This document shows positions 8,992 to 38,951 of a stretch of DNA of 64,000 nt, piece after piece. Where the stretch lies: sequence record OR515477.1, one strand, 5' to 3'. A model generated the notes under the pieces. That model did not search any database. It was not told the DNA's origin and saw only the letters and a program-made list of their open reading frames with translations. The translations under genes and the position numbers were made by a program. The stretch comes from Escherichia phage Es2. Each line of letters starts with the position of its first letter. The first letter of the stretch is position 1.

Positions 8992-9420
8992 TTAAGCAGT
9001 TAAACCTGGGATCATATACCCGAAACGTCGAAGTTTCTGAATCCCCTCATTTACTTCTTCCGGTGAGTAAGACCAACCATAACGTTCATTAACCTGAAAA
9101 CCAGGAGATTCACTAGTCTTATAGTTAACAACGAGGCGATGCTTAGCAGGCATAAACAGCTTATAGTTTAACGCAAAAACTAAGCCCATTTCATCTAGCT
9201 CTTTCCAGCCCACAATCTCTTCAAGACCATCCTCTACCTGCACAATTAAACCAATACATGGGGCCTCATCAATATCATCTTTAAAAGCAAAGGAGATTTC
9301 GTTATTCTCACACCATATTTTCAAAAAGTTAATAGCCTCATTATACAGGCTAGCCGGGAGAGTACGCCAAAAGTTAACCAAAATTGGGTTAGCTTCTTTA
9401 GAGAATACATTATTGAACAT
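8992..9420 (-). CDS. hypothetical protein, paralog of 8590-8982
   Basis: Tandem paralog; same conserved blocks. Confidence 0.55.
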   Translation of the reverse strand: MFNNVFSKEANPILVNFWRTLPASLYNEAINFLKIWCENNEISFAFKDDIDEAPCIGLIVQVEDGLEEIVGWKELDEMGLVFALNYKLFMPAKHRLVVNYKTSESPGFQVNERYGWSYSPEEVNEGIQKLRRFGYMIPGLTA

Positions 9421-9422
9421 AC

Positions 9423-9929
9423 TTACACCTTAAATTGTTGTAAGGATTTACACATTTCAAGATCTGGGCTAAATTCTAGCATATAGCTAACAGCTTTTAA
9501 ATCTTGAAGATTTACCCCAGTCCTACCATTGACTATAACCGTTGGATACTGGTACATCATAGCACCAGCATCATCCAGCACACACCAATGTTTGAGCTTA
9601 TGCTTTTCAACGAAGCGAAGAACAGAATTACCCCTAGATAATCCACCCCCGGTAAAATCCGTTGTACCAAGAAAACGATCGATAAGACCTAATCCGGTCA
9701 TAATCTGAACGTTCTCCATCTCATTTCTGACAGAGAACCAAGATGATACCCCAACAATCATTATTGAAGAGGGACGAATAAAATCCTGAAAAGCCTTGAG
9801 AAGTGGCTTAAAAACCCAATCACTTCCGAAGAAGATCTTTTCATCATCCGGCGCATGGTGGTGCGAGATGCTCGAATTGAGCACCCCATCAATATCTAGA
9901 AAAATAACTGGAGTATTACTTATTTCCAT
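9423..9929 (-). CDS. HAD-superfamily phosphatase-like protein
   Basis: N-terminal FLDIDGVLN (DxDG[TV] HAD motif I). Confidence 0.55.
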   Translation of the reverse strand: MEISNTPVIFLDIDGVLNSSISHHHAPDDEKIFFGSDWVFKPLLKAFQDFIRPSSIMIVGVSSWFSVRNEMENVQIMTGLGLIDRFLGTTDFTGGGLSRGNSVLRFVEKHKLKHWCVLDDAGAMMYQYPTVIVNGRTGVNLQDLKAVSYMLEFSPDLEMCKSLQQFKV

Positions 9930-10098
9930 TTTTGTTCCTTTCTAAGAACGTATCATACTCAACCGTATCAACATATATGACACCATAGTCATCGGATTTA
10001 TAGTCCATTTCCCACAGCTCACAGCGATAACACCAACTACCATCCGCCCATACAAATATATCATCGGGATGTGTATATACAGATTTAACTATAGACAT
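9916..10098 (-). CDS. hypothetical protein
   Basis: 60 aa ORF overlapping neighbours by a few nt (coupled). Confidence 0.4.
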   Translation of the reverse strand: MSIVKSVYTHPDDIFVWADGSWCYRCELWEMDYKSDDYGVIYVDTVEYDTFLERNKNGNK

Positions 10099-10913
10099 AT
10101 TTGTTTCCCTGGCATATAAGGTCTACCCTCTAAATGAGCTTCCACACGAGCAATAAAATCAGGATCACTGAAAGCATCTACCGCACCTTTACTCCAGTAA
10201 GGGATACCACGTTCTTCCAACTGGTACATCTCACTACGAGTCATACCTTGATAGCCGGGCTCCGCTGCTAGAGCACTATCATAGTAGTTAACAACCATAA
10301 GTTTCGCAGCAGTCAAATTAAGAACAGGAAATAATTCCCAGTAGAAGTTAATTACTTGGTTAGAACAACCAACTACAATAATCATATCTTGACTGGTAAT
10401 ACTGTCAAAAACATTATACATTTCTGTGTATGCAGGAGCATGCTCTCCAAAGAAGATTACATTAGGTTTAACCCATTTATAATCATCTGGATCAATAGAA
10501 TTGTATCCTACGTCAATAATCCGTTTATTGCTACTATTATAGCTATCAGCTACAATAATCTCTTTTAAATATCCGTGAATGTGCAGAATGTCACTATGTG
10601 GAACGCCAGCACGTTCAATAAGGTCATCAACGTTAGTAGTCAAGTTTACTACTTGACCTGGATATTGTTTATACCATTCACCAATACGCAAATGCGCAAG
10701 ATTGGGTTCAACAGTTTTTAGCTCTTCACGACGTTTATTGTAAAATGCGTGAGTTTTATGATAAAAGTTACCACGAAAGGCATGAATATTACATACCTCT
10801 TCTAGATCATAATCATCCCACAATGCCTTACCGCTAGCAGTATCCGTACGGAAGGCTCGTACACCACTTTCAACGCTCAAACCTGCACCACTAATAATAA
10901 TTAATCTACGCAT
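10089..10913 (-). CDS. Sir2-family (sirtuin-like) NAD-dependent protein
   Basis: ISGAGLSVESGVRAFR (GAGIS..SGIP.FR-like), TNVDDLIERAG (TQNID.LH..AG-like) and HIHG motifs. Confidence 0.7.
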   Translation of the reverse strand: MRRLIIISGAGLSVESGVRAFRTDTASGKALWDDYDLEEVCNIHAFRGNFYHKTHAFYNKRREELKTVEPNLAHLRIGEWYKQYPGQVVNLTTNVDDLIERAGVPHSDILHIHGYLKEIIVADSYNSSNKRIIDVGYNSIDPDDYKWVKPNVIFFGEHAPAYTEMYNVFDSITSQDMIIVVGCSNQVINFYWELFPVLNLTAAKLMVVNYYDSALAAEPGYQGMTRSEMYQLEERGIPYWSKGAVDAFSDPDFIARVEAHLEGRPYMPGKQICL

Positions 10914-11127
10914 TTTTCACCTGTTCTCTGAAGTTTTGCCCAATACTGTCTAACAGCTCAGCTAACTCTTTATTGCCTTTCTCCATTAAGGTATTAGCAA
11001 TAACTTCTAGCATAGTAGCGCAGGATTCAACACCATCCTTATAGCCAGTTTCCCAGTGCTGCATTAATGCGTTTTCCAAAGCGGTGTTTAAATCATTATC
11101 GGGTAGCATCGGCTTCGAGAATGCCAT
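10906..11127 (-). CDS. hypothetical protein
   Basis: Six-frame ORF, 73 aa. Confidence 0.4.
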   Translation of the reverse strand: MAFSKPMLPDNDLNTALENALMQHWETGYKDGVESCATMLEVIANTLMEKGNKELAELLDSIGQNFREQVKNA

Positions 11128-11320
11128 AAAGTTTCTCCTCTAGTTCCATGATACGATTTTCATAAGAGGCACGCAACTTTTCAATTGCCAGCGCACGCAC
11201 TGTAACTTCATTAGAATTAATAGCTAATTGGGCCAGGTCTTCTGTTTCCATACGTCCGTTGTAAATTAAGCGATATTTAAGATGTTTCACATTCTTAGTC
11301 ATTATTAAACTCCACTGCAA
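11096..11320 (-). CDS. hypothetical protein
   Basis: Six-frame ORF, 74 aa. Confidence 0.4.
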   Translation of the reverse strand: MQWSLIMTKNVKHLKYRLIYNGRMETEDLAQLAINSNEVTVRALAIEKLRASYENRIMELEEKLYGILEADATR

Positions 11321-11675
11321 CTGTTTCTAGGTCTTCATCAGAAAAATTAGAGTATACATCTTTAAGGTATTGTTTAATGTCTTCAGTAATATCTTCGTAT
11401 CCCTCAGGACTACGTTGGTATACTTTTAGTACTCTATTATAAACAAATTCAATATCATACTTTATTTCACCCTCATCCTCGTCAAACAAGCAATCTGAGT
11501 TATACGGTGATACATCTAGATTTGTTTCTACCCAATCACCAATAATTGATGAATATCCAATACCCTCTAGATGGGAGTAATCTCCAGTAGATGCAAAAAT
11601 AGCTTCTCTAAGATCGTCTACGCCAAGATGGAAACCACCACATGTAGACTCAACTATATATGGTTTTAGATTCAT
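11295..11675 (-). CDS. hypothetical acidic protein
   Basis: 126 aa ORF downstream of promoter 11706-11734. Confidence 0.5.
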   Translation of the reverse strand: MNLKPYIVESTCGGFHLGVDDLREAIFASTGDYSHLEGIGYSSIIGDWVETNLDVSPYNSDCLFDEDEGEIKYDIEFVYNRVLKVYQRSPEGYEDITEDIKQYLKDVYSNFSDEDLETVAVEFNND

Positions 11676-11705
11676 AATTCATACCTCTCTCAAATTTATA
11701 AATCT

Positions 11706-11734
11706 ATTATATATAAATTTTTGGCTGAAAGCAA
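11706..11734 (-). promoter_or_regulatory. early-type sigma70 promoter (minus strand)
   Basis: Reverse complement TTGCTT, 17 bp, TATAAT, then ATTTATAAATTTGAGAGAGG. Confidence 0.6.
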
Positions 11735-11770
11735 ATAAAATAAAAGCCAGGTCGACTAGCAACCCGGCTG
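11733..11770 (-). terminator. rho-independent terminator after nrdD (minus strand)
   Basis: Reverse complement AGCCGGGTTGCTAGTCGACCTGGCT followed by TTTATTTTATTT. Confidence 0.6.
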
Positions 11771-11776
11771 ATTAGC

Positions 11777-13651
11777 TTATTTAGCTCGAATATCCTGATG
11801 TTTCACTCTGCCCATAACCTCGTGCTGTTTGCCAGGGTTAAATGGACGAGCACCTGGATTTCCAAGATACCCACAAACTCGACGAGTTACTTCAAGAGTT
11901 TCGGGGTCATGATTACCACAGATAGGGCACTTAAATCCATCTTCGGATGCTACTGTTTCACCTAAGAATCCACATTTACCACAAGAATCCACTGGAGTAT
12001 TAATACCGAAGTAATGAACTTTACTAGCAGCATAATTAATAACCCATTCCAGTGCATCTGGGAATCGTTTCATATCTGGTAGTTCTACATAGGAAATGCA
12101 CCCACCAGAAGCAATCGGAGTAAAATTAGATTCATAATCAAATTTCACATTGGGAGCAACTTTGCGTTCTACATCAAGGTGGTGCGAGTTAGTGTAGTAA
12201 CCTTTACTAAGAATATCTTCATGCTCCGGGAAATATTCACGATCTAAACGGCAGAAACGATCACATAAGGATTCAGATGGTGTAGCATACAGGCTATAAC
12301 CTAACTTAGTTTCTTCCTTCTTCTGATCGACTCTATCCCGCATGTACTGCAATACACGCTGAACAAACTTGATGCAGGTATCGGACATTGTGTCTACATC
12401 TTTGCCAAACATGAACTGTAGCATTTCATGGCAACCAATATACCCTAGAGATACAGAAGCACGGTTATAGAAATGATCGAATACATATTCATCAGGCTCC
12501 AAGCGTAACCCAAAGGCTCCTGACATATAGAGGATGGGTGCAGCTTTAGCTTGGATGTATTTTAAGCGATCAACTCTCCACTCCAATGCTTTTAGCGCTG
12601 TATCCACACGTAGCTCAAGCAAATCAAAGAATAGATCAATATTTCCTTCAGCTTCGATAGCAATTCTAGGCAAGTTTACAGAAACAACACCTAAGTTATT
12701 ACGACCGGCAGTTTCACCATCTTCTGCAGCAGCTAGGAATGAACGACAGCCCATAGAAACTTTGTAGTCTCCAGTAACTTCTACAACCTTGTCATAGCTG
12801 ATATAATCTGGATACATACGTTCAGACGTACATTTCATAGCTAACTTCTTGATGTCATAATTAACATCCCCTGGTTTCATGTTAACGCCATCACGGAGTA
12901 CAAATACCAGTTTAGGGAAGATAGCTGTACGCTTATTGATACCTAAACCATCCATGCGTACTTTCAGTATTGCTTTCTGTACTAGACGTGCTTCCCAAGA
13001 AGTTCCTAGACCAAAACCAAAGGTAATAAATGGACTCTGACCATTAGAGTTGAACATGGTATTGATTTCATATTCTAAACCCTGACAAGCGTCATAGACT
13101 TCTTTTTCAGTCATCTCCGTAGCCATTACGGATGCTTTAGCTTCATCCTTAGTCCAACGTTTTGCAAACGCATGATTTTTGTCATAGGATTTACGAACAT
13201 AAGGGGCTAATACTTCATCAAGGCGATCTACAGAAGTACCACCATACTGATGGGAGCTAACCTGAGTGATAATCTGAGCAGTAATAGCCGCCGCAGTAGT
13301 GATAGAGTTTGGAGTGCTAATTTCAGCATTACCAACCTTCATACCATTCTTCAACATATCTTCCAGAGCTACCAGGCAACAGTTAGTCATGCCTAATGCA
13401 GCATAATCAGCATCATGGAAATGAATATCCCCAATCATATGAGCATTTCGAATCTGAATTGGCATTTCTTCTAGAATCAGATACTTACTCAATTCACCTG
13501 CAAGCATATCCCTTTGTGTAGGGAAACGTTCTGAGGGTTTATTGGCATTATTAAACAGCAGCTCTTCATCTGCTGACCCTTCGATAATCTCTTTGCAGTT
13601 TCTAATTAACGCCTGCATTTCTTTATACTTTAGTTCTTCATTGCGATTCAT
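11777..13651 (-). CDS. nrdD: anaerobic ribonucleoside-triphosphate reductase (class III RNR)
   Basis: C-terminal glycyl-radical motif TRRVCGYLG, Cys-rich CGKCGF..CPICG zinc site, 624 aa. Confidence 0.8.
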   Translation of the reverse strand: MNRNEELKYKEMQALIRNCKEIIEGSADEELLFNNANKPSERFPTQRDMLAGELSKYLILEEMPIQIRNAHMIGDIHFHDADYAALGMTNCCLVALEDMLKNGMKVGNAEISTPNSITTAAAITAQIITQVSSHQYGGTSVDRLDEVLAPYVRKSYDKNHAFAKRWTKDEAKASVMATEMTEKEVYDACQGLEYEINTMFNSNGQSPFITFGFGLGTSWEARLVQKAILKVRMDGLGINKRTAIFPKLVFVLRDGVNMKPGDVNYDIKKLAMKCTSERMYPDYISYDKVVEVTGDYKVSMGCRSFLAAAEDGETAGRNNLGVVSVNLPRIAIEAEGNIDLFFDLLELRVDTALKALEWRVDRLKYIQAKAAPILYMSGAFGLRLEPDEYVFDHFYNRASVSLGYIGCHEMLQFMFGKDVDTMSDTCIKFVQRVLQYMRDRVDQKKEETKLGYSLYATPSESLCDRFCRLDREYFPEHEDILSKGYYTNSHHLDVERKVAPNVKFDYESNFTPIASGGCISYVELPDMKRFPDALEWVINYAASKVHYFGINTPVDSCGKCGFLGETVASEDGFKCPICGNHDPETLEVTRRVCGYLGNPGARPFNPGKQHEVMGRVKHQDIRAK

Positions 13652-13680
13652 TATACTCTCCTTCTCTAACTAAGACTACT

Positions 13681-13709
13681 ATTATAACTCATTCGAGGGC
13701 GGATGTCAA
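13681..13709 (-). promoter_or_regulatory. sigma70 promoter for nrdD (minus strand)
   Basis: Reverse complement TTGACA, 17 bp, TATAAT. Confidence 0.55.
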
Positions 13710-13760
13710 CAATATTTTACTATAAAGTTCTGTAACATGATCTGAGTCAAAAAATTTTAT

Positions 13761-13789
13761 TTGCCAATCTCTATTAAAAATTGTATAAT
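13761..13789 (+). promoter_or_regulatory. sigma70-like promoter (TTGCCA, 17 bp, TATAAT)
   Basis: Part of the divergent control region; followed by CACGCACTCGTGCACGC partial dyad. Confidence 0.5.
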
Positions 13790-13901
13790 CACGCACTCGT
13801 GCACGCAATATAAAATGATTATCTAGTATCACACATCTCACGTTAAAAGCAAGCAAATTTTTTATTTAAATGCAATATCATAGGCTTATTTAAAATTGTA
13901 G

Positions 13902-13930
13902 TTGCTTTTTACTGTATATATTGGTATAAT
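13902..13930 (+). promoter_or_regulatory. early-type sigma70 promoter for phoH operon
   Basis: TTGCTT, 17 bp (TG-extended), TATAAT. Confidence 0.6.
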
Positions 13931-14003
13931 ATATTTGTAAGTTGATAAACAAGATCTTTTTGTTGATCCTCTGTTAGCGAAATACACTATAGGAGTGTTA
14001 TTT

Positions 14004-14756
14004 ATGGGAAAAGCACGTCAAAAAAGAGAGAACCGCAATGGTTCAAGAAAGCGTGGCAACAAGTATGAGAATAACGTAATTCAGGCTGATTTTTCTAATG
14101 ATTACGCTAACCCAGTTGCTAAATCCCTAGTAGGTAAAAACCGCGAGCAAAAATCATATATCAATATGATCAAGAACAACACAGTGACTGTGGGTATCGG
14201 TGAGCCAGGTACTGGTAAAACCTTTATTCCGTCCGTTCTTGCAGCTCAGGAACTCGTAGACATTCACTCAGATATTGAGCAAGTGATTCTCGTCCGTCCT
14301 AATGAACCTCTAGGTAAGTCTCTTGGTATGCTTCCTGGTGATCTAGCGGAAAAGCTAGAGCCTTGGTTGGAGCCAATAGCTGATGGTATGAAATGGGCCA
14401 TCGGCGATCATGCATATAAAGGATATGTCGAACGTCAGAAAATTAAATTTTTGGCTATCGAACATGCTCGTGGCAGAACTTTCAACAACTCCTATGTAAT
14501 TGTCGATGAAGCTCAGAATATTTCCGTTGAGGCAATGATTTGTCTCCTAACTCGTGTAGGACAAGACTGCCGTTTAATTATCTGCGGAGATATAGCTCAG
14601 AAAGACATTAAAGGTGATTCAGGTCTAGCACTCCTTATGGAAGTCTATGAGAAATACGAAAATGCCCCCTTCTCAATGATCGAATTGATTGATAACGTTC
14701 GTTCTGTTGAGTCTAAAGCATTCTATGACATTTTTAAAGACATGGGGAAGGTGTAA
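14004..14756 (+). CDS. phoH: PhoH-like ATPase
   Basis: Walker A GEPGTGKTF, Walker B-like VIVDEAQN; ATG 14004 with AGGAG upstream. Confidence 0.75.
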   Translation: MGKARQKRENRNGSRKRGNKYENNVIQADFSNDYANPVAKSLVGKNREQKSYINMIKNNTVTVGIGEPGTGKTFIPSVLAAQELVDIHSDIEQVILVRPNEPLGKSLGMLPGDLAEKLEPWLEPIADGMKWAIGDHAYKGYVERQKIKFLAIEHARGRTFNNSYVIVDEAQNISVEAMICLLTRVGQDCRLIICGDIAQKDIKGDSGLALLMEVYEKYENAPFSMIELIDNVRSVESKAFYDIFKDMGKV

Positions 14757-14757
14757 T

Positions 14758-14979
14758 ATGGGAAACGTCGTTCATCTGAGCCGTAAAACTAAAATACATC
14801 GTACTTCACTGAGTGCTGCTAATATGATTACACGTAAGGAAGGGGAAGAAAGTCCTAAGACAACCCTAGCATGGAAAATTGTAACCTCAAATCCAAATAA
14901 ACCATTCAATTATAACGAGCTGAGCACCTCCATAGATATTCTATTAAAAGAAGTAGCTAGAGCTAAAGTAATTGAATAA
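14758..14979 (+). CDS. hypothetical protein
   Basis: ATG immediately after phoH stop; 73 aa. Confidence 0.45.
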   Translation: MGNVVHLSRKTKIHRTSLSAANMITRKEGEESPKTTLAWKIVTSNPNKPFNYNELSTSIDILLKEVARAKVIE

Positions 14980-15121
14980 GCTAAAAAGCTAGACTGACAA
15001 CACAGAAGGCCTGGGTATGAAAATACTCGGGCCTTTTCTATCAGAAAATTTTATTTGCCTAATGACCGATAATAAAGTAGAATATTTCCTAAATCCTGAT
15101 AACTATAAAAAGGAAAACCAA

Positions 15122-17452
15122 ATGAGCCATCGTATTGAAAAAGTAATTAAACGTGACGGTACTGTAGAAGACTTTGCTCCTGGAAAAATCAATGGTTGGG
15201 CAGAGTATGGTTGCAAAACAGTTGATGTAAGTTGGTCAGCCATTACTATGGCTGCTCAAAAAACTCTACCTAAAGGGGTTGTAGATTCCGATACTCTGAT
15301 GGACGCATTAATTAAGGCTGCTGAAAGTCTTATCAAAGATAACCCAGCATATGATGTGCCGGCAAAGGAATTACGTCTTGCGCAAATGCGTAAACGTCTT
15401 TATGACTCTTTCGAACCGCCTTCTCTGCGCTTCTTCCACGACCATATGGTTAGCGTAGGTGCATGGGAAGATATGAGTGCATGGATTACCGATGAGCAAT
15501 TTGAAGCTCTGAATCAGGTTATCGACCATGATCGTGACCGTCTTTTTACTAGTGGTGGGCTGAAGCAGTTCTTTGATAAATATTCCCGTCGTAACATAGC
15601 CACTGGTGAAATTTACGAAACCCCGCAGTTTGCCTACATGGGTATGGCAATGGCGATGCTATCTCAACCTAACTGGACAATTCTAGATGCAATCGATCTC
15701 TACAATGCAATGTCGCTCCACAAAATCAACGTTCCTACGCCGCCACTGGTTGGTCTGCGCTCTAGTGACCGTGGATTTGCTAGTTGCTGCCTCGTGGATT
15801 CCACTGACACGTTGGATTCAATCGACACCGCCGAGCACATCGTCTTCAAGATGGTCGCAGCCAGAGCGGGAATCGGGTATCATCTTGAAAGCCGATCAAT
15901 TGCTGATCCGGTGCGAAATGGGGCATTCCCGCATTCCGGAAAACTGCCATATTATCGACACATTGACCGCTCAGTAAAGGCCAATACTCAGCAAACTCGT
16001 GGTGGTTCTGCTACAGTGTCTTATCCATACTTCGACCCTGAAATCATTCAGTTGATGCAGGTTAAGCAACAACGTGCTACAGACGAGAATAAAATCGACA
16101 AGATGGATTATTCTCTGAATTTCAATAATCTTTTGTTAAAACGTTATCTTAAAAACGAAGATATTACGCTAATGTCATACTTCTATGCTCCAGAAGTTCA
16201 TGAAGCGTTTTATAGTGATGACGAGGCTAAATTTGAAGAAATCTACGTGGCAGCGGAGAAACGTGTGGCATCTCTTACAAAGATCGACCACGAAGGAAAA
16301 ACAGTTCCAGCAGCTCCTAAAGTCTCTGCAAAAGAAATCCTAGATACTTGGCTACGTATCCGAATGGAAACAGGACGTATGTATGCTCATCACATCGGGG
16401 AATCTAATCGTCACGGTAACTTCCTTGATCCGATCCGTATGACAAACCTTTGTGTTGAAATTACTCAGCCTACACGCCCGTTCCATCATATTACAGAGCT
16501 GTACAAGACAAAAGAGCAGCTTGATCAAATGAAGCCGGAGGATATTGGTGAAGTATCCCTGTGTAACTTAGGTGGTGTTGTACTTGGACGCATGGAATCT
16601 CTGGCTGAGTGGGAAAAAACTTGCTATATTCTTCTGAAATTCGTTGATACCATCATTGAAATTCAGGATTATCCGTTCCCAACTATGGAATATACGGCTA
16701 AGAAACGTCGTAACGTTGGTATTGGTCTGATGAACGCAGCGGGTGCAATGGCAGCGGAAGGTTTGGCTTACGAAGGTATTGAAGCTCGTAACTGGATCCA
16801 CCGTGAGGCTGAAAAACTATCTTACTTCCTGCATAAAGCCTCTGTACGCCTGGCTAAGGAACAGGGTGCATGTGAGTGGTTTGATCGTACTAAACCATCT
16901 AAAGGAATTCTAGTAATCGATACGTACAAGAAAACTGTTGATGAACTGGTATCCGTAGGTCTAGAAATGGATTGGGAGTCTCTGCGTGCAGATATTCTGA
17001 AATACGGTATGCGTAACTCTGTTCTGACTGCTCAGATGCCAGGAGAAAGTTCTTCTGTTCTGTTAGGTGTTACTAACTCTATTGAACCGCCTCGTAAGAT
17101 TGTATCTATCAAAGGTAGTGCAGTGAATAAAGTAATTGCAATTGCCCCGGGTGCAACCGATTGGGAAACGTTAATGAGCTATAAACTGGCTTATGATGTA
17201 GATCGTATCGAGTGGATCAAATGGGTAGCAACTATGCAGAAATTCTTCAGTCAGTCTATCAGTACGAATATGTACTATGACTACACCAAGTTTGAGAATG
17301 AAATCATTCCTGGCCCAGTAGTAGTTCGTGATTTCATGACTGCTGTTAAGTATGGGTGGAAAACTTGGTATTATGCTAACTTCAACACTGCAAATGGTGG
17401 AGGTGCAGGAGAAGAAGCAGCAGGTTGTGCATCCGGTGGTTGTACTATTTAA
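15122..17452 (+). CDS. nrdA: ribonucleoside-diphosphate reductase alpha subunit (class Ia)
   Basis: N-terminal ATP-cone-like region, active-site TNLCVEI, C-terminal CASGGC tail; start at MSHRIEK with RBS. Confidence 0.8.
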   Translation: MSHRIEKVIKRDGTVEDFAPGKINGWAEYGCKTVDVSWSAITMAAQKTLPKGVVDSDTLMDALIKAAESLIKDNPAYDVPAKELRLAQMRKRLYDSFEPPSLRFFHDHMVSVGAWEDMSAWITDEQFEALNQVIDHDRDRLFTSGGLKQFFDKYSRRNIATGEIYETPQFAYMGMAMAMLSQPNWTILDAIDLYNAMSLHKINVPTPPLVGLRSSDRGFASCCLVDSTDTLDSIDTAEHIVFKMVAARAGIGYHLESRSIADPVRNGAFPHSGKLPYYRHIDRSVKANTQQTRGGSATVSYPYFDPEIIQLMQVKQQRATDENKIDKMDYSLNFNNLLLKRYLKNEDITLMSYFYAPEVHEAFYSDDEAKFEEIYVAAEKRVASLTKIDHEGKTVPAAPKVSAKEILDTWLRIRMETGRMYAHHIGESNRHGNFLDPIRMTNLCVEITQPTRPFHHITELYKTKEQLDQMKPEDIGEVSLCNLGGVVLGRMESLAEWEKTCYILLKFVDTIIEIQDYPFPTMEYTAKKRRNVGIGLMNAAGAMAAEGLAYEGIEARNWIHREAEKLSYFLHKASVRLAKEQGACEWFDRTKPSKGILVIDTYKKTVDELVSVGLEMDWESLRADILKYGMRNSVLTAQMPGESSSVLLGVTNSIEPPRKIVSIKGSAVNKVIAIAPGATDWETLMSYKLAYDVDRIEWIKWVATMQKFFSQSISTNMYYDYTKFENEIIPGPVVVRDFMTAVKYGWKTWYYANFNTANGGGAGEEAAGCASGGCTI

Positions 17453-17553: not shown

Positions 17554-18078
17554 TTGATAACACAAGATGAATTAAAAAGGGTTCTGGAATATAATCCAGA
17601 TGAAGGAACATTTACTTGGTTAGATAATCAAGAAGTACATAATAAAGTAAGAGGGCTACCTGCCGGTTGCTTAAAACCGCACTCAGTAGATCCTAACCGA
17701 AAAGATTTAGTAATACAAATCAACGGTAAGAAGTATCCTGCACAAAATATTGCTTTCCTGTATATGACAGGAAATTTACCCAAAATTATGGTTGATCATG
17801 TAGATGGAGATCCACTAAATTATAGGTGGAATAATCTAAGGGAAGCAGACTGGCAGTTAAATAGTCAAAATAGAAAAACCAGCAAAAACAATATATTGGG
17901 TACTAAGAATATTAGGAAGAAAGGGTCTGGGTTCCAAGTTAGAAAATCCATTAACGGAAAAGAATATGTGAAAACTCTTCCTACGCTAGAAGAAGCGATA
18001 GAATATCGAGATTCTTTAATCCTCTCTATAACCAAAGACCCAACACTACTTAGAAACACAGATAAACAGGAGAACTAA
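17554..18078 (+). CDS. HNH homing endonuclease-like protein
   Basis: DHVDGDPLNYRWNNLREA HNH motif; TTG start 7 nt after AAGGAGA; inserted between nrdA and nrdB. Confidence 0.6.
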   Translation: MITQDELKRVLEYNPDEGTFTWLDNQEVHNKVRGLPAGCLKPHSVDPNRKDLVIQINGKKYPAQNIAFLYMTGNLPKIMVDHVDGDPLNYRWNNLREADWQLNSQNRKTSKNNILGTKNIRKKGSGFQVRKSINGKEYVKTLPTLEEAIEYRDSLILSITKDPTLLRNTDKQEN

Positions 18079-19223
18079 TGACAACTTTACTTAACTTAAA
18101 CTGGGACCATACCAATAAAGATCTATTTCTTGGTGATTCTCTTGGTATTGCAGATTATGTACGAGTAGCCCATCCAGAGCTAGAAAGGCTGGCGTTATTA
18201 GCTCGCTCTCAATTTTGGACTGAAACTGAAATCAGTCTGGAAGCAGATAAGAAACAATGGCCTAATCTCCCACGTGAAATTCAGGAAATTACACTCCTGA
18301 ACTTAGCATGGCAAACCCAAACCGACTCCTTTATCAGTCGTGCCCCTGAAGCAGCTATTATGCCGCTTGTAAGTCGTCCAGAATTGGAAGGTATGCTCAA
18401 GCAGTGGAGCTACTTCGAAGATCTGCATAGTCGTGCTTATAGTAATATTATTCGTAATGTGCTGACTGATCCAGCAGAATTTATTGATTCTGTAACCAAA
18501 AACCAGGAAGCATTCGCACGTATCGCTGATTCTGTTGAACTATTCGATGAACTGTACCAGTTAGGTCAGTATTTCATCGCAGTACGCGATCATCGTGGCG
18601 ACAATACATACCCAGAAACTGAGTTCCCTGAAGTTAAACGTGAAACTCAGTCTAAACTATTAGACGCTTACTTTGCGATCTATGGTCTGGAAGCAATGCA
18701 GTTTTACGCATCCTTTGCATGTACCTTTGCATTAGCAGAGAACGATATTCTGCAAGGTATTGCTAAAAATCTGCAATTAATCGCTAAAGATGAAGCTCTG
18801 CACACTCAGATGTCCAAAGCAATCATCCAGATTATGTTTCAGCAATTTGACAAAGATCTGGTAGATGAAGCAGTGGCTAAAGCACCAGCACAGCTCCTGA
18901 AAACTCTGAAAACTGAAATTGAATGGGGTCATTTCATTTTCAAAGGTCGTAGTCTGATTGGCTTGAATGCAGAACTTCTAGAAGAATATCTGTACTTTGT
19001 GGGGCGTAATGCATTTATGCACATTGGTGTAGAATGGCCTAGTCATTTACCAGTAATCACCAAAAACCCTATTCCGTGGATCATGAACTGGTTGGATACC
19101 ACTTCTTTACAGCCTGCTCCACAAGAAATCCAGATTGGTGCAGCTTACCGTGTAGGTCAGGTAACTGAGACCTCTACTGATACTCTGAAAGATTTGGGCA
19201 ATGAATTTGGAGATTTCCTATGA
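18078..19223 (+). CDS. nrdB: ribonucleoside-diphosphate reductase beta subunit
   Basis: Di-iron ligand pattern (EDLHSRAY, DEALHTQM), size 381 aa, follows nrdA. Confidence 0.75.
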   Translation: MTTLLNLNWDHTNKDLFLGDSLGIADYVRVAHPELERLALLARSQFWTETEISLEADKKQWPNLPREIQEITLLNLAWQTQTDSFISRAPEAAIMPLVSRPELEGMLKQWSYFEDLHSRAYSNIIRNVLTDPAEFIDSVTKNQEAFARIADSVELFDELYQLGQYFIAVRDHRGDNTYPETEFPEVKRETQSKLLDAYFAIYGLEAMQFYASFACTFALAENDILQGIAKNLQLIAKDEALHTQMSKAIIQIMFQQFDKDLVDEAVAKAPAQLLKTLKTEIEWGHFIFKGRSLIGLNAELLEEYLYFVGRNAFMHIGVEWPSHLPVITKNPIPWIMNWLDTTSLQPAPQEIQIGAAYRVGQVTETSTDTLKDLGNEFGDFL

Positions 19224-37836: not shown

Positions 37837-37909
37837 AGTTAGTTGGCAGAGTGGTTATGCACCTCCTTCATACGGAGCGACTACAGTGGTTCAAATCCAC
37901 TACTAACTA
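37837..37909 (+). tRNA. tRNA-Met/Ile2 (anticodon CAT)
   Basis: Acceptor AGTTAGT/ACTAACT, anticodon loop TTCATAC, T-arm AGTGG-TTCAAAT-CCACT, CCA encoded. Confidence 0.65.
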
Positions 37910-37949
37910 CCATTAAAAGAGCTAGAGATAGCTAACTTTAGGAGCAGCT

Positions 37950-38144: not shown

Positions 38145-38186
38145 AGAATAAATAGCTGAGCCAAATTCTAACATCGGGGAGATCTA

Positions 38187-38555
38187 ATGAAAGCATATCA
38201 AAACCTTAAATCTGGCGTAATTAATATTGTTCATAATAATCAGATCATTCAGCTATATTCCGATAATGGTGAACTTAAACAGAAAGTTCTAGTTGAAGAT
38301 CTAGAAGGTATCACACCTCACTTTGACCCTGAGGCCTTTCGCATTGTAGATGTGGAAGTGGTTCCTCAAATCGAAGGTGGTCAGCACCTAAATGTCAATG
38401 TATTAAGCCGTGATCAGCTTTTGGATGCGCAGAAACATCCTGAAAAATACCCTCAATTAACTATCCGTGTTTCAGGGTACGCTGTTCGATTTAATGCACT
38501 GACTCGTGAACAACAGAACGACGTTATTAGTCGTACATTTACTCAGGCGATGTAA
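38187..38555 (+). CDS. grcA: autonomous glycyl-radical cofactor-like protein (GrcA/YfiD-like)
   Basis: C-terminal [11 protein letters not shown]...[37 protein letters not shown] closely matches the GrcA/PFL glycyl-radical domain as recalled from memory (RVSGY motif). Confidence 0.7.
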
Positions 38556-38636: not shown

Positions 38637-38951
38637 GTGGATCGAGCATTAAGACGTCATCACAGGCAACGTGTAAAGAACAACCGCAAGAAGTACTGGA
38701 CAGTCTTTCCACATGAAGAAAGCCCTAAGCGGTTAGGTATTATCACTACTACTCCTTGCATCTGTTCTTGTTGGATGTGTGGGAACCCTCGCAAGTACTA
38801 TAAGAATAGTAAAGCAGGCATGAAAACCTCGGAGATCAGGAAAATGGAAGCGATGATTATGGGCATCTCAAATGATGAATTTGATGGCTTTGTAGGATTC
38901 GGAGAAGGAATCAGCTCAGGCTGTTTAGAAGATGAACGCCCCGACCTGTAA
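38637..38951 (+). CDS. hypothetical Cys-rich basic protein
   Basis: 104 aa ORF, CICSCWMC motif; start codon uncertain. Confidence 0.4.
   Translation: MDRALRRHHRQRVKNNRKKYWTVFPHEESPKRLGIITTTPCICSCWMCGNPRKYYKNSKAGMKTSEIRKMEAMIMGISNDEFDGFVGFGEGISSGCLEDERPDL

What the first reader, a model, noticed from the sequence alone, without database searches (positions are those of the whole stretch)
11777..13651. nrdD without a cognate nrdG activase in 64 kb
Class III RNR requires a radical-SAM activase with a CxxxCxxC cluster motif. No ORF in this window carries that motif next to nrdD, so the phage enzyme may depend on the host NrdG, which would tie phage dNTP supply under anaerobiosis to a host factor.
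Basis: inference. Interest (0 to 1): 0.4.

Follow-up and report, generated by a model that had tools for sequence, protein, structure and literature searches.

The report
T5-like phage nrdD lacking its activase
This T5-like phage carries an intact, strongly conserved anaerobic ribonucleotide reductase gene but no gene for the enzyme that switches it on, so it most likely borrows the host's activating enzyme; the gene arrangement was already tabulated for phage T5 in 2013.

Summary
Window 11777-13651 (-) encodes a complete 624-aa class III ribonucleotide reductase, NrdD. All catalytic, zinc-site and glycyl-radical residues are present. The gene has its own consensus promoter and terminator.

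No NrdG activase is found in the 64 kb. None is found in the full 110-kb genome of a relative that is about 97% identical over the tested nrdD region (Escherichia phage Lindwurm, Tequintavirus). The same search found NrdG in three positive controls.

Evidence that the orphan gene is functional:
- nrdD is under very strong purifying selection (dN/dS about 0.02).
- The activase-less synteny nrdB-nrdA-phoH / nrdD-sir2 holds across enterobacterial Demerecviridae, down to 63% protein identity.
- Vibrio Demerecviridae and the nearest NrdD relatives outside the family do carry nrdG.

Activation by host NrdG is the best inference, but it is untested.

The window also encodes a second glycyl-radical protein without an activase: a GrcA/Y06I-like "spare part" at 38187-38555. 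The T4 homologue is known to be activated by the host pyruvate formate-lyase activase.

The arrangement is not new. Dwivedi et al. 2013 list T5, EPS7 and SPC35 as nrdB-nrdA-nrdD with no NrdG.

Verdict: real, ordinary for this phage group, already known. The mechanism has never been tested.

The parts
11777..13651 (-). nrdD, class III (anaerobic) ribonucleoside-triphosphate reductase, 624 aa, without an ATP-cone. Key residues: C91, M300, C302, N319, zinc site C557/C560/C575/C578, glycyl radical G594 in RRVCGYLG.
   Evidence: Pfam NRDD 1e-171 and Gly_radical 7e-23. NCBIfam PRK09263, 844 bits. 54% identical to E. coli NrdD from E. coli residue 113 onward. Residue mapping. dN/dS 0.02.
13681..13709 (-). 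Perfect sigma-70 consensus promoter (TTGACA, 17 nt spacer, TATAAT) driving nrdD. The ribosome-binding site AAGGAG lies at 13663-13658.
   Evidence: 12 of 12 consensus matches. Sequence read. No convincing FNR or NrdR box.
11745..11769 (-). Intrinsic terminator-like hairpin with a T-run, starting 8 nt after the nrdD stop codon. nrdD is therefore a one-gene unit with no co-transcribed activase.
   Evidence: 10-bp stem, 6 GC pairs, followed by TTTATTTTAT. A terminator is annotated at the matching place in Lindwurm.
15122..17452 (+). nrdA, class Ia RNR large subunit (776 aa counted from the ATG that gives the length of the Lindwurm annotation). Transcribed divergently from nrdD, after phoH.
   Evidence: Pfam Ribonuc_red_lgC 2e-119 and lgN 9e-12. 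Lindwurm annotation.
18078..19223 (+). nrdB, class Ia RNR small subunit (381 aa).
   Evidence: Pfam Ribonuc_red_sm 2e-36.
13995..14756 (+). phoH-like ATPase lying between nrdD and nrdA. This is the conserved synteny marker of T5-like phages.
   Evidence: Pfam PhoH 3e-61. Same order in Torridgeon and L013. Noted for T5, EPS7 and SPC35 in PMC3653736.
38187..38555 (+). GrcA/YfiD/T4-Y06I-like autonomous glycyl-radical 'spare part' protein, 122 aa, with radical glycine G97 in RVSGYAV. It is a second glycyl-radical protein with no phage-encoded activase.
   Evidence: Sequence. Pfam Gly_radical 4e-18. NCBIfam GrcA models 1e-34, below cut-off. 50% identical over its full length to the T4-group homologue.
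38637..38951 (+). Small basic Cys-rich protein (104 aa, motif PCICSCWMCGNPRK). It is the only sizeable ORF in the window with CxxxCxxC. Considered as an activase and rejected.
   Evidence: No Pfam or NCBIfam hit. phrog_4499, function unknown. NrdG HMM E=12. Homologues occur in Rhizobium, Serratia and Psychrobacter phage records (Erwinia and Acinetobacter by the organism tally), whose glycyl-radical gene content was not examined.

Best explanation
The phage makes its own cone-less, formate-type class III ribonucleotide reductase (NrdD) from a strong early promoter. It relies on the NrdG radical-SAM activase already present in an anaerobically growing enterobacterial host, together with host flavodoxin and SAM, to install the glycyl radical on G594. 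Under anoxia the activated enzyme would supply dNTPs when the oxygen-dependent phage NrdAB cannot work.

Shown here: the gene is intact and constrained, and no activase is encoded.

Inferred: host NrdG is the activator. Only the high-demand, stoichiometric catalytic subunit is carried, because the activase acts catalytically. Loss of the ATP-cone frees the phage enzyme from dATP feedback.

The GrcA-like protein in the same window fits the same logic. It would be activated by host PflA and would restore oxygen-damaged pyruvate formate-lyase, which makes the formate that this type of NrdD uses as reductant.
For: - NrdD is complete, with every functional residue aligned to E. coli C175, M382, C384, N405, the four zinc cysteines and G681.
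- dN/dS is 0.020-0.023 against two T5-like phages at dS 0.66-0.95.
- The unit is monocistronic, with a 12/12 consensus promoter and a terminator.
- There is no NrdG in the window or in the whole Lindwurm genome, and the positive controls were detected.
- The activase-less synteny is kept in Sugarlandvirus (65% nucleotide identity) and in a metagenomic relative at 63% amino-acid identity. The orphan state is therefore old and stable.
- The radical loop RRVCGYLG is identical to the host's, and the last 34 aligned residues are 74% identical against 55% for the core.
- The listed hosts are Escherichia, Salmonella, Klebsiella, Shigella and Citrobacter. E. coli K-12 encodes nrdDG.
- Precedent: the T4 GrcA homologue Y06I receives its radical from host PFL-AE (PMC8683613). 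This window carries such a homologue without any activase.
- From established knowledge: E. coli nrdDG is induced anaerobically, NrdG acts as an activating enzyme, and T5 degrades host DNA and does not reuse its nucleotides, so it depends on de novo dNTP synthesis.
Against: - No direct test of activation was possible.
- The similarity of the radical domain to E. coli NrdD is the same (71-76%) in phages that carry their own nrdG. It does not single out host compatibility.
- The phage NrdD is only 54% identical to host NrdD overall.
- T4, on the same host, keeps its own nrdG. From memory of Young et al. 1994 (not verified here), T4 NrdD needed it, so cross-activation by host NrdG is not automatic.
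- A strong constitutive-looking promoter with no FNR site means the protein would also be made, uselessly, in air.
- The window's own source genome outside the 64 kb was checked only through a relative that is about 97% identical over the tested nrdD region.
Confidence: 0.72

Rival explanations
1. A different host radical-SAM activase activates the phage NrdD instead of NrdG. Candidates are PflA or another E. coli glycyl-radical activase such as PflC or YjjW.
For: The phage already appears to exploit PflA for its GrcA-like protein. The NrdD loop RVCGYL resembles the PFL loop RVSGYA.
Against: E. coli NrdD has the identical loop RRVCGYLG. From established knowledge (Garriga et al. 1996), it still needs nrdG for strict anaerobic growth, so PflA does not substitute for NrdG on that loop. 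Glycyl-radical activases are generally specific for their partner.
Confidence: 0.07
2. The orphan NrdD is not used as a radical ribonucleotide reductase. It may be a relic or have another role, such as nucleotide binding or sequestering a host factor.
For: No activase is encoded. Expression is not visibly tied to anoxia.
Against: dN/dS is about 0.02 over 624 codons. The thiyl cysteine, the Met-x-Cys loop, the zinc site and the radical glycine are all conserved. Only catalysis would preserve all of them together. The gene is retained in more than 450 phage records.
Confidence: 0.08
3. The phage encodes an unrecognised, non-canonical activase among its many small proteins of unknown function. 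Candidates are the Cys-rich 104-aa protein at 38637-38951 or the small ORFs just downstream of nrdD.
For: 38637-38951 carries CxCxCxxC, which contains CxxxCxxC, and sits directly after the GrcA-like gene. The three ORFs downstream of nrdD have no known function.
Against: - The 104-aa protein is too small for a radical-SAM barrel. Only about 80 aa are conserved, the N-terminus is very basic, and there is no Pfam, NCBIfam or NrdG-HMM signal.
- It also occurs in unrelated Rhizobium, Serratia and Psychrobacter phage records (Erwinia and Acinetobacter by the organism tally), so it is not confined to T5-like phages.
- The 126-aa and 74-aa ORFs after nrdD are missing in the distant activase-less relatives.
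- The ~70-aa ORFs that follow nrdD in different lineages are not homologous to one another.
Confidence: 0.03
4. nrdG exists in this particular phage, outside the 64-kb window.
For: Only 64 kb of a roughly 110-kb genome is in hand. T5-like genomes are mosaics with variable insertions, for example the HNH gene at 17554-18078, which is absent in Lindwurm.
Against: The remainder of Lindwurm holds only structural, replication and pre-early genes. Six-frame search finds no NrdG homologue. T5, EPS7 and SPC35 are listed without NrdG. None of 40 evenly sampled phage records with an NrdG match was a ~110-kb enterobacterial T5-like phage.
Confidence: 0.03

Closest known systems
Phage T5, EPS7 and SPC35 RNR gene set (nrdB-nrdA-nrdD, no nrdG), as tabulated by Dwivedi et al. 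2013 (PMC3653736)
   Same: Same virus group (Demerecviridae, Markadamsvirinae). [quoted passage not shown] Same absence of nrdG.
   Different: Nothing of substance. This window has an extra HNH endonuclease gene between nrdA and nrdB.
Phage T4 NrdD/NrdG class III RNR
   Same: Cone-less NrdD of about 600 aa (phmmer 1e-178 to PDB 1H78). Same zinc ribbon and glycyl-radical C-terminus. Same host. T4 also encodes NrdAB and a GrcA-like protein, Y06I.
   Different: T4 carries its own nrdG close to nrdD. The T5-like phage has none. T4's radical loop is RRTCGYLG, against RRVCGYLG in this phage and in E. coli.
E. coli NrdDG
   Same: 54% identical catalytic core. Identical radical loop. Same Met-x-Cys thiyl loop of the formate-using NrdD1 type.
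   Different: The host enzyme has an N-terminal ATP-cone of about 110 aa and is encoded in an operon with nrdG. The phage gene is monocistronic, lacks the cone, and shows no FNR or NrdR sites.
Vibrio Demerecviridae (pVp-1, Dax) RNR cluster
   Same: Same virus family. NrdD is 53% identical.
   Different: The Vibrio phages have an NrdD with an ATP-cone (717-724 aa). Their cluster is nrdD, a glutaredoxin-like gene, two genes labelled 'ribonucleotide reductase', then nrdG. They therefore encode NrdG.
GrcA (YfiD) of E. coli and Y06I of T4, autonomous glycyl-radical cofactors
   Same: The window protein 38187-38555 has the same size and the PFL-type C-terminus ...GGQHLNVNV...[15 protein letters not shown].... 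Y06I is activated by host PFL-AE.
   Different: Only the C-terminal ~69 residues (54-122) match the GrcA models, and the scores are below NCBI's equivalog cut-offs. Function in T5-like phages is untested.

Membership tests
Class III ribonucleotide reductase catalytic subunit (NrdD) | Full-length NRDD catalytic domain | tested here: met
   Pfam PF13597 E=1e-171, profile positions 2-562 of 562. NCBIfam PRK09263, 844 bits against a cut-off of 657.
Class III ribonucleotide reductase catalytic subunit (NrdD) | C-terminal glycyl-radical motif RVCGY, with the radical glycine | tested here: met
   G594 in RRVCGYLG aligns with E. coli G681 and T4 G580. Pfam Gly_radical 7e-23.
Class III ribonucleotide reductase catalytic subunit (NrdD) | Thiyl-radical cysteine loop and the second active-site cysteine; Met-x-Cys of the formate-using NrdD1 subclass | tested here: met
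   C302, M300 and C91 align with E. coli C384, M382 and C175. N319 aligns with T4 N311. Assignment to NrdD1 rests on these residues and on similarity to StNrdD and E. coli NrdD. Use of formate is inferred.
Class III ribonucleotide reductase catalytic subunit (NrdD) | Four-cysteine zinc ribbon before the radical loop | tested here: met
   C557, C560, C575 and C578 align with E. coli C644, C647, C662 and C665.
Class III ribonucleotide reductase catalytic subunit (NrdD) | Ribonucleotide reduction after radical installation (enzyme activity) | not testable with these tools
   Needs anaerobic biochemistry. Strong purifying selection (dN/dS 0.02) is indirect support only.
Complete class III RNR system (NrdD plus cognate NrdG) | A radical-SAM activase NrdG (about 150 aa, CxxxCxxC) encoded with nrdD | tested here: not met
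   No NrdG-HMM hit in the window (best E=2) or in the whole Lindwurm genome (best E=1.4). Controls were detected at 1e-45 to 1e-78. nrdD is monocistronic.
Radical-SAM superfamily (any activase) | CxxxCxxC cluster motif in a protein large enough for the partial TIM barrel (roughly 150 aa or more) | tested here: not met
   The only ORF with the motif is 104 aa, with no family match. None of the 47 annotated Lindwurm proteins outside the window has it.
Autonomous glycyl-radical cofactor (GrcA/YfiD/Y06I), for the ORF at 38187-38555 | Small (~14 kDa) protein ending in the PFL glycyl-radical domain with RVSGYAV | tested here: met
   122 aa, G97 in RVSGYAV. Pfam Gly_radical 4e-18 on residues 63-103. 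50% identity at 100% coverage to the protein annotated GrcA in T4-group phages.
Autonomous glycyl-radical cofactor (GrcA/YfiD/Y06I), for the ORF at 38187-38555 | Score above NCBIfam's GrcA equivalog cut-off | tested here: not met
   TIGR04365 scores 118.9 bits against a cut-off of 170. Only residues 54-122 match. It is therefore GrcA-like with a divergent N-terminal half.
Autonomous glycyl-radical cofactor (GrcA/YfiD/Y06I), for the ORF at 38187-38555 | Activation by PFL-AE and rescue of O2-cleaved PFL | not testable with these tools
   Shown for YfiD and T4 Y06I only (PMC8683613).

The most novel reading that the evidence does not exclude
Enterobacterial T5-like phages run a two-part anaerobic module made only of glycyl-radical substrates and no activases. 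NrdD would be activated by host NrdG, and a GrcA-like spare part would be activated by host PflA. The GrcA-like protein would keep host pyruvate formate-lyase producing the formate that the phage NrdD consumes. Phage DNA synthesis in the anoxic gut would then hinge on two host radical-SAM enzymes. This would also be a natural case of an NrdG activating a foreign NrdD only 54% identical to its own partner, in contrast to T4, which carries its own nrdG.
Probability: 0.35. Interest if true: 0.5.

Novelty: already known. Interest (0 to 1): 0.25.

Why it matters
If host NrdG is the activator, anaerobic replication of a large and therapeutically popular phage group depends on a host enzyme the phage cannot replace. 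T5-like phages of E. coli, Salmonella, Klebsiella and Shigella are common in the gut and in phage cocktails. This would bear on phage efficacy in the anoxic gut, on host-range limits and on routes to resistance. It would also give enzymologists a natural test of how specific NrdG is for its NrdD partner. The gene arrangement itself is ordinary for this phage group and is already recorded. What is missing is the experiment.

Tried and rejected
- **Regulation by host anaerobic factors.** I looked for FNR (TTGATnnnnATCAA) and NrdR boxes at the nrdD promoter. There are only 2- and 4-mismatch matches, at chance frequency (66 observed against 63.6 expected window-wide). There is no evidence of anaerobic or NrdR control.
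- **The Cys-rich 104-aa ORF at 38637-38951 as a mini-activase.** Rejected because of its size, the lack of any family signal, and its presence in unrelated phages.
- **A conserved nrdD-linked accessory protein.** The ~70-aa ORFs that follow nrdD in five lineages are not homologous. The Vibrio ones are glutaredoxin-like (WCxYC).
- **Radical-domain similarity to the host as a test of host dependence.** Orphan NrdDs are no closer to the host in this domain than NrdDs from phages with their own nrdG (71-76% in all). The measure is uninformative.
- **Six-frame translation through align_proteins.** I then found that locus files in /data hold several records each, and ran the six-frame search there.
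- **Literature searches.** Searches for T5-specific statements on nrdD and nrdG, or on anaerobic infection, found nothing beyond Dwivedi 2013 and RNRdb. I could not retrieve the 1994 T4 paper on gene 55.9 (nrdG), so the statement that T4 NrdD needs its own activase rests on memory.

Full report
**What the window is.** The region 11000-15000 is 96-97% identical to many Escherichia, Salmonella and Citrobacter T5-like phages. The best matches are SUT_E1520, Lindwurm and slur09. Lindwurm is classified as Demerecviridae, Markadamsvirinae, Tequintavirus. Window base 1 corresponds to Lindwurm base 38182. The window's right end reaches the pre-early A2 region. The 64 kb therefore cover the early region, the tRNA block (23 tRNAs) and part of the pre-early region of a genome of about 110 kb.

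**The observation.**
- The ORF at 11777-13651 (-) is a complete NrdD. It matches Pfam NRDD at 1e-171 over the whole profile and Gly_radical at 7e-23. It scores 844 bits on the NCBIfam equivalog, against a cut-off of 657.
- Among solved structures it matches Streptococcus thermophilus NrdD (2e-188) and T4 NrdD (1e-177).
- It is 54% identical to E. coli NrdD, starting at host residue 113. It therefore lacks the ATP-cone.
- Every functional residue is in place: C91, M300, C302, N319, the zinc cysteines C557/C560/C575/C578, and the radical glycine G594 in RRVCGYLG.
- The gene has a 12/12 sigma-70 consensus promoter (13709-13681) and an AAGGAG ribosome-binding site. A hairpin with a T-run starts 8 nt after the stop codon. 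It is thus a one-gene transcription unit.

**Is there an activase?**
- An HMM built from four NrdG proteins found nothing in the six-frame translation of the window. The best hit was E=2 at 4.9 bits.
- The same HMM detected the NrdG of Vibrio phage pVp-1 (1e-78) and of two podophage-like loci (5e-53 and 1e-45) as positive controls.
- CxxxCxxC occurs three times in six frames. Only one occurrence is in a real ORF, at 38637-38951.
- In the complete Lindwurm genome the best NrdG-HMM hit is E=1.4. The only CxxxCxxC in an ORF of at least 100 aa is the same small protein. No nrdG is annotated, and none of the 47 annotated proteins outside the window has the motif.

**Is the orphan gene functional?**
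- Against Salmonella phage UTK0009 (Epseptimavirus) and Escherichia phage DaisyDussoix, nrdD shows 199-251 nucleotide differences. Of these, 170-208 are at third codon positions, and only 10-20 amino acids differ. This gives dN/dS of 0.020-0.023 at dS of 0.66-0.95.
- The arrangement nrdB-nrdA-phoH divergent from nrdD-(small ORF)-sir2 is kept, still without nrdG, in Klebsiella phage Torridgeon (Sugarlandvirus, 65% nucleotide identity). It is also kept in a metagenomic relative whose NrdD is 63% identical.
- In contrast, the next-closest cone-less NrdDs (56-58% identical) sit in podophage-like regions of Vibrio and Aeromonas assemblies. They have a Fer4_12/radical-SAM NrdG immediately downstream.
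- The Vibrio members of the same family, pVp-1 and Dax, encode NrdG in their RNR cluster.
- The orphan state is therefore an old, stable and selected condition of the enterobacterial branch. It is not a decaying remnant.

**How it most likely works.** A class III reductase is inert until a radical-SAM activase abstracts a hydrogen atom from the C-terminal glycine. The phage encodes no such enzyme, yet it maintains every radical-chemistry residue under strong constraint. The simplest source of activation is the host's NrdG. E. coli encodes it next to nrdD, and from established knowledge it is made under anoxia.
- The radical loop is identical to the host's, and the last 34 aligned residues are 74% identical against 55% for the core.
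- This is only weak support, because phages that carry their own nrdG show the same values.
- The inferred rationale has two parts. NrdG acts catalytically, so the host's pre-existing pool may suffice. The catalytic subunit is needed in bulk, and the cone-less phage version would escape dATP feedback.
- T5 is known to destroy host DNA and to discard rather than reuse its nucleotides. A deoxynucleoside-5'-monophosphatase is annotated in Lindwurm. Phage DNA synthesis therefore depends on ribonucleotide reduction, and the oxygen-dependent NrdAB cannot serve in anoxia.

**An unexpected supporting feature.**
- At 38187-38555 (+) lies a 122-aa protein ending in ...GGQHLNVNV...[19 protein letters not shown].... 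This is the pyruvate formate-lyase glycyl-radical domain. It matches Pfam Gly_radical at 4e-18 and the NCBIfam GrcA models at about 1e-34, though below their cut-offs.
- It is 50% identical over its full length to the T4-group protein annotated as autonomous glycyl-radical cofactor.
- The T4 protein Y06I and E. coli YfiD are "spare parts" that receive their radical from the host PFL activase and rescue oxygen-cleaved PFL (PMC8683613).
- The phage thus carries two glycyl-radical proteins and no activase, and for one of the two types host activation is documented.
- PFL makes formate, the reductant of the NrdD1 subclass. A functional link between the two phage genes is therefore plausible, but it is inferred.

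**Rivals.**
- A different host activase such as PflA is unlikely. E. coli NrdD has the same loop and, from established knowledge, still requires nrdG.
- A non-catalytic role is hard to reconcile with conservation of all radical residues at dN/dS of 0.02.
- A cryptic phage activase was sought and not found:
  - The Cys-rich 104-aa protein next to the GrcA-like gene is too small and very basic, and it has no family signal. It also occurs in Rhizobium, Serratia and Psychrobacter phage records (Erwinia and Acinetobacter by the organism tally).
  - The small ORFs after nrdD are either lineage-specific or not homologous between lineages.
- An nrdG outside the window in this particular phage cannot be strictly excluded. 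It is improbable given Lindwurm and the published tables.

**What is known.**
- Dwivedi et al. [quoted passage not shown] - Their Additional file 1 lists T5, EPS7 and SPC35 as nrdB-nrdA-nrdD with an empty NrdG column.
- RNRdb (2009) already counted 30 phage NrdD sequences against 21 phage NrdG sequences.
- I found no paper in the searchable library that tests or discusses host-NrdG dependence of T5-like phages.

**Verdict.** The arrangement is a recorded, family-wide trait of T5-like phages, so novelty is "already known" and interest is low to moderate. The open and readily testable point is biochemical: whether E. coli NrdG activates a foreign NrdD that is 54% identical to its own partner.

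Noticed in passing
window 38187-38555 (+): 122-aa GrcA/YfiD/T4-Y06I-like autonomous glycyl-radical 'spare part' protein (RVSGYAV, G97). It lies at the downstream edge of the tRNA block, after the last tRNA (37837-37912). It is annotated inconsistently in relatives: 'formate-lyase', 'acetyltransferase-like', 'ribonucleotide reductase subunit' or 'hypothetical'. It is a second glycyl-radical protein with no phage activase.
   Followed up: yes
window 38637-38951 (+): 104-aa very basic protein with four cysteines in eight residues (TTTPCICSCWMCGNPRK). It matches phrog_4499 (unknown function) and sits directly downstream of the GrcA-like gene. Homologues (37-61% identical) occur in Rhizobium, Serratia and Psychrobacter phages (Erwinia and Acinetobacter by the organism tally). 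Probably a small metal-binding or nucleic-acid-binding protein. Function unknown.
   Followed up: partly
window 17554-18078 (+): 174-aa HNH_3 endonuclease ORF (TTG start) inserted between nrdA and nrdB. No gene is annotated at this position in Lindwurm, where nrdB follows nrdA after about 100 nt. Probably a free-standing homing endonuclease.
   Followed up: partly
window 10089-10913 (-) and 8992-9929 (-): A Sir2-family protein (274 aa), a HAD_SAK_2 phosphatase-like protein (168 aa) and a DUF7415 protein lie downstream of nrdD. The nrdD-sir2 linkage is conserved in Sugarlandvirus and in a metagenomic relative (L011, L013).
   Followed up: no
window 15122-17452 (+): No Pfam ATP-cone was detected in the phage class Ia NrdA. 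Its first ~140 residues are unmatched. Both phage reductases may therefore lack canonical overall-activity regulation.
   Followed up: no
L012 7389-7601 and L007 3097-3309 (Vibrio phages pVp-1 and Dax): The 70-aa ORF right after nrdD in Vibrio Demerecviridae carries a WCxYC glutaredoxin/NrdH-like motif. In Dax the NrdG gene (gp77) is annotated only as 'hypothetical protein'.
   Followed up: partly
L014 5001-7513 and L015 5001-7279 (Vibrio sp. and Aeromonas enteropelogenes assemblies): Cone-less nrdD-nrdG pairs annotated as chromosomal lie among podophage-like genes (head-tail connector, Gp10A-like capsid, 5'-3' exonuclease, MazG). These are probably prophages or phage contigs rather than host RNR genes.
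   Followed up: no
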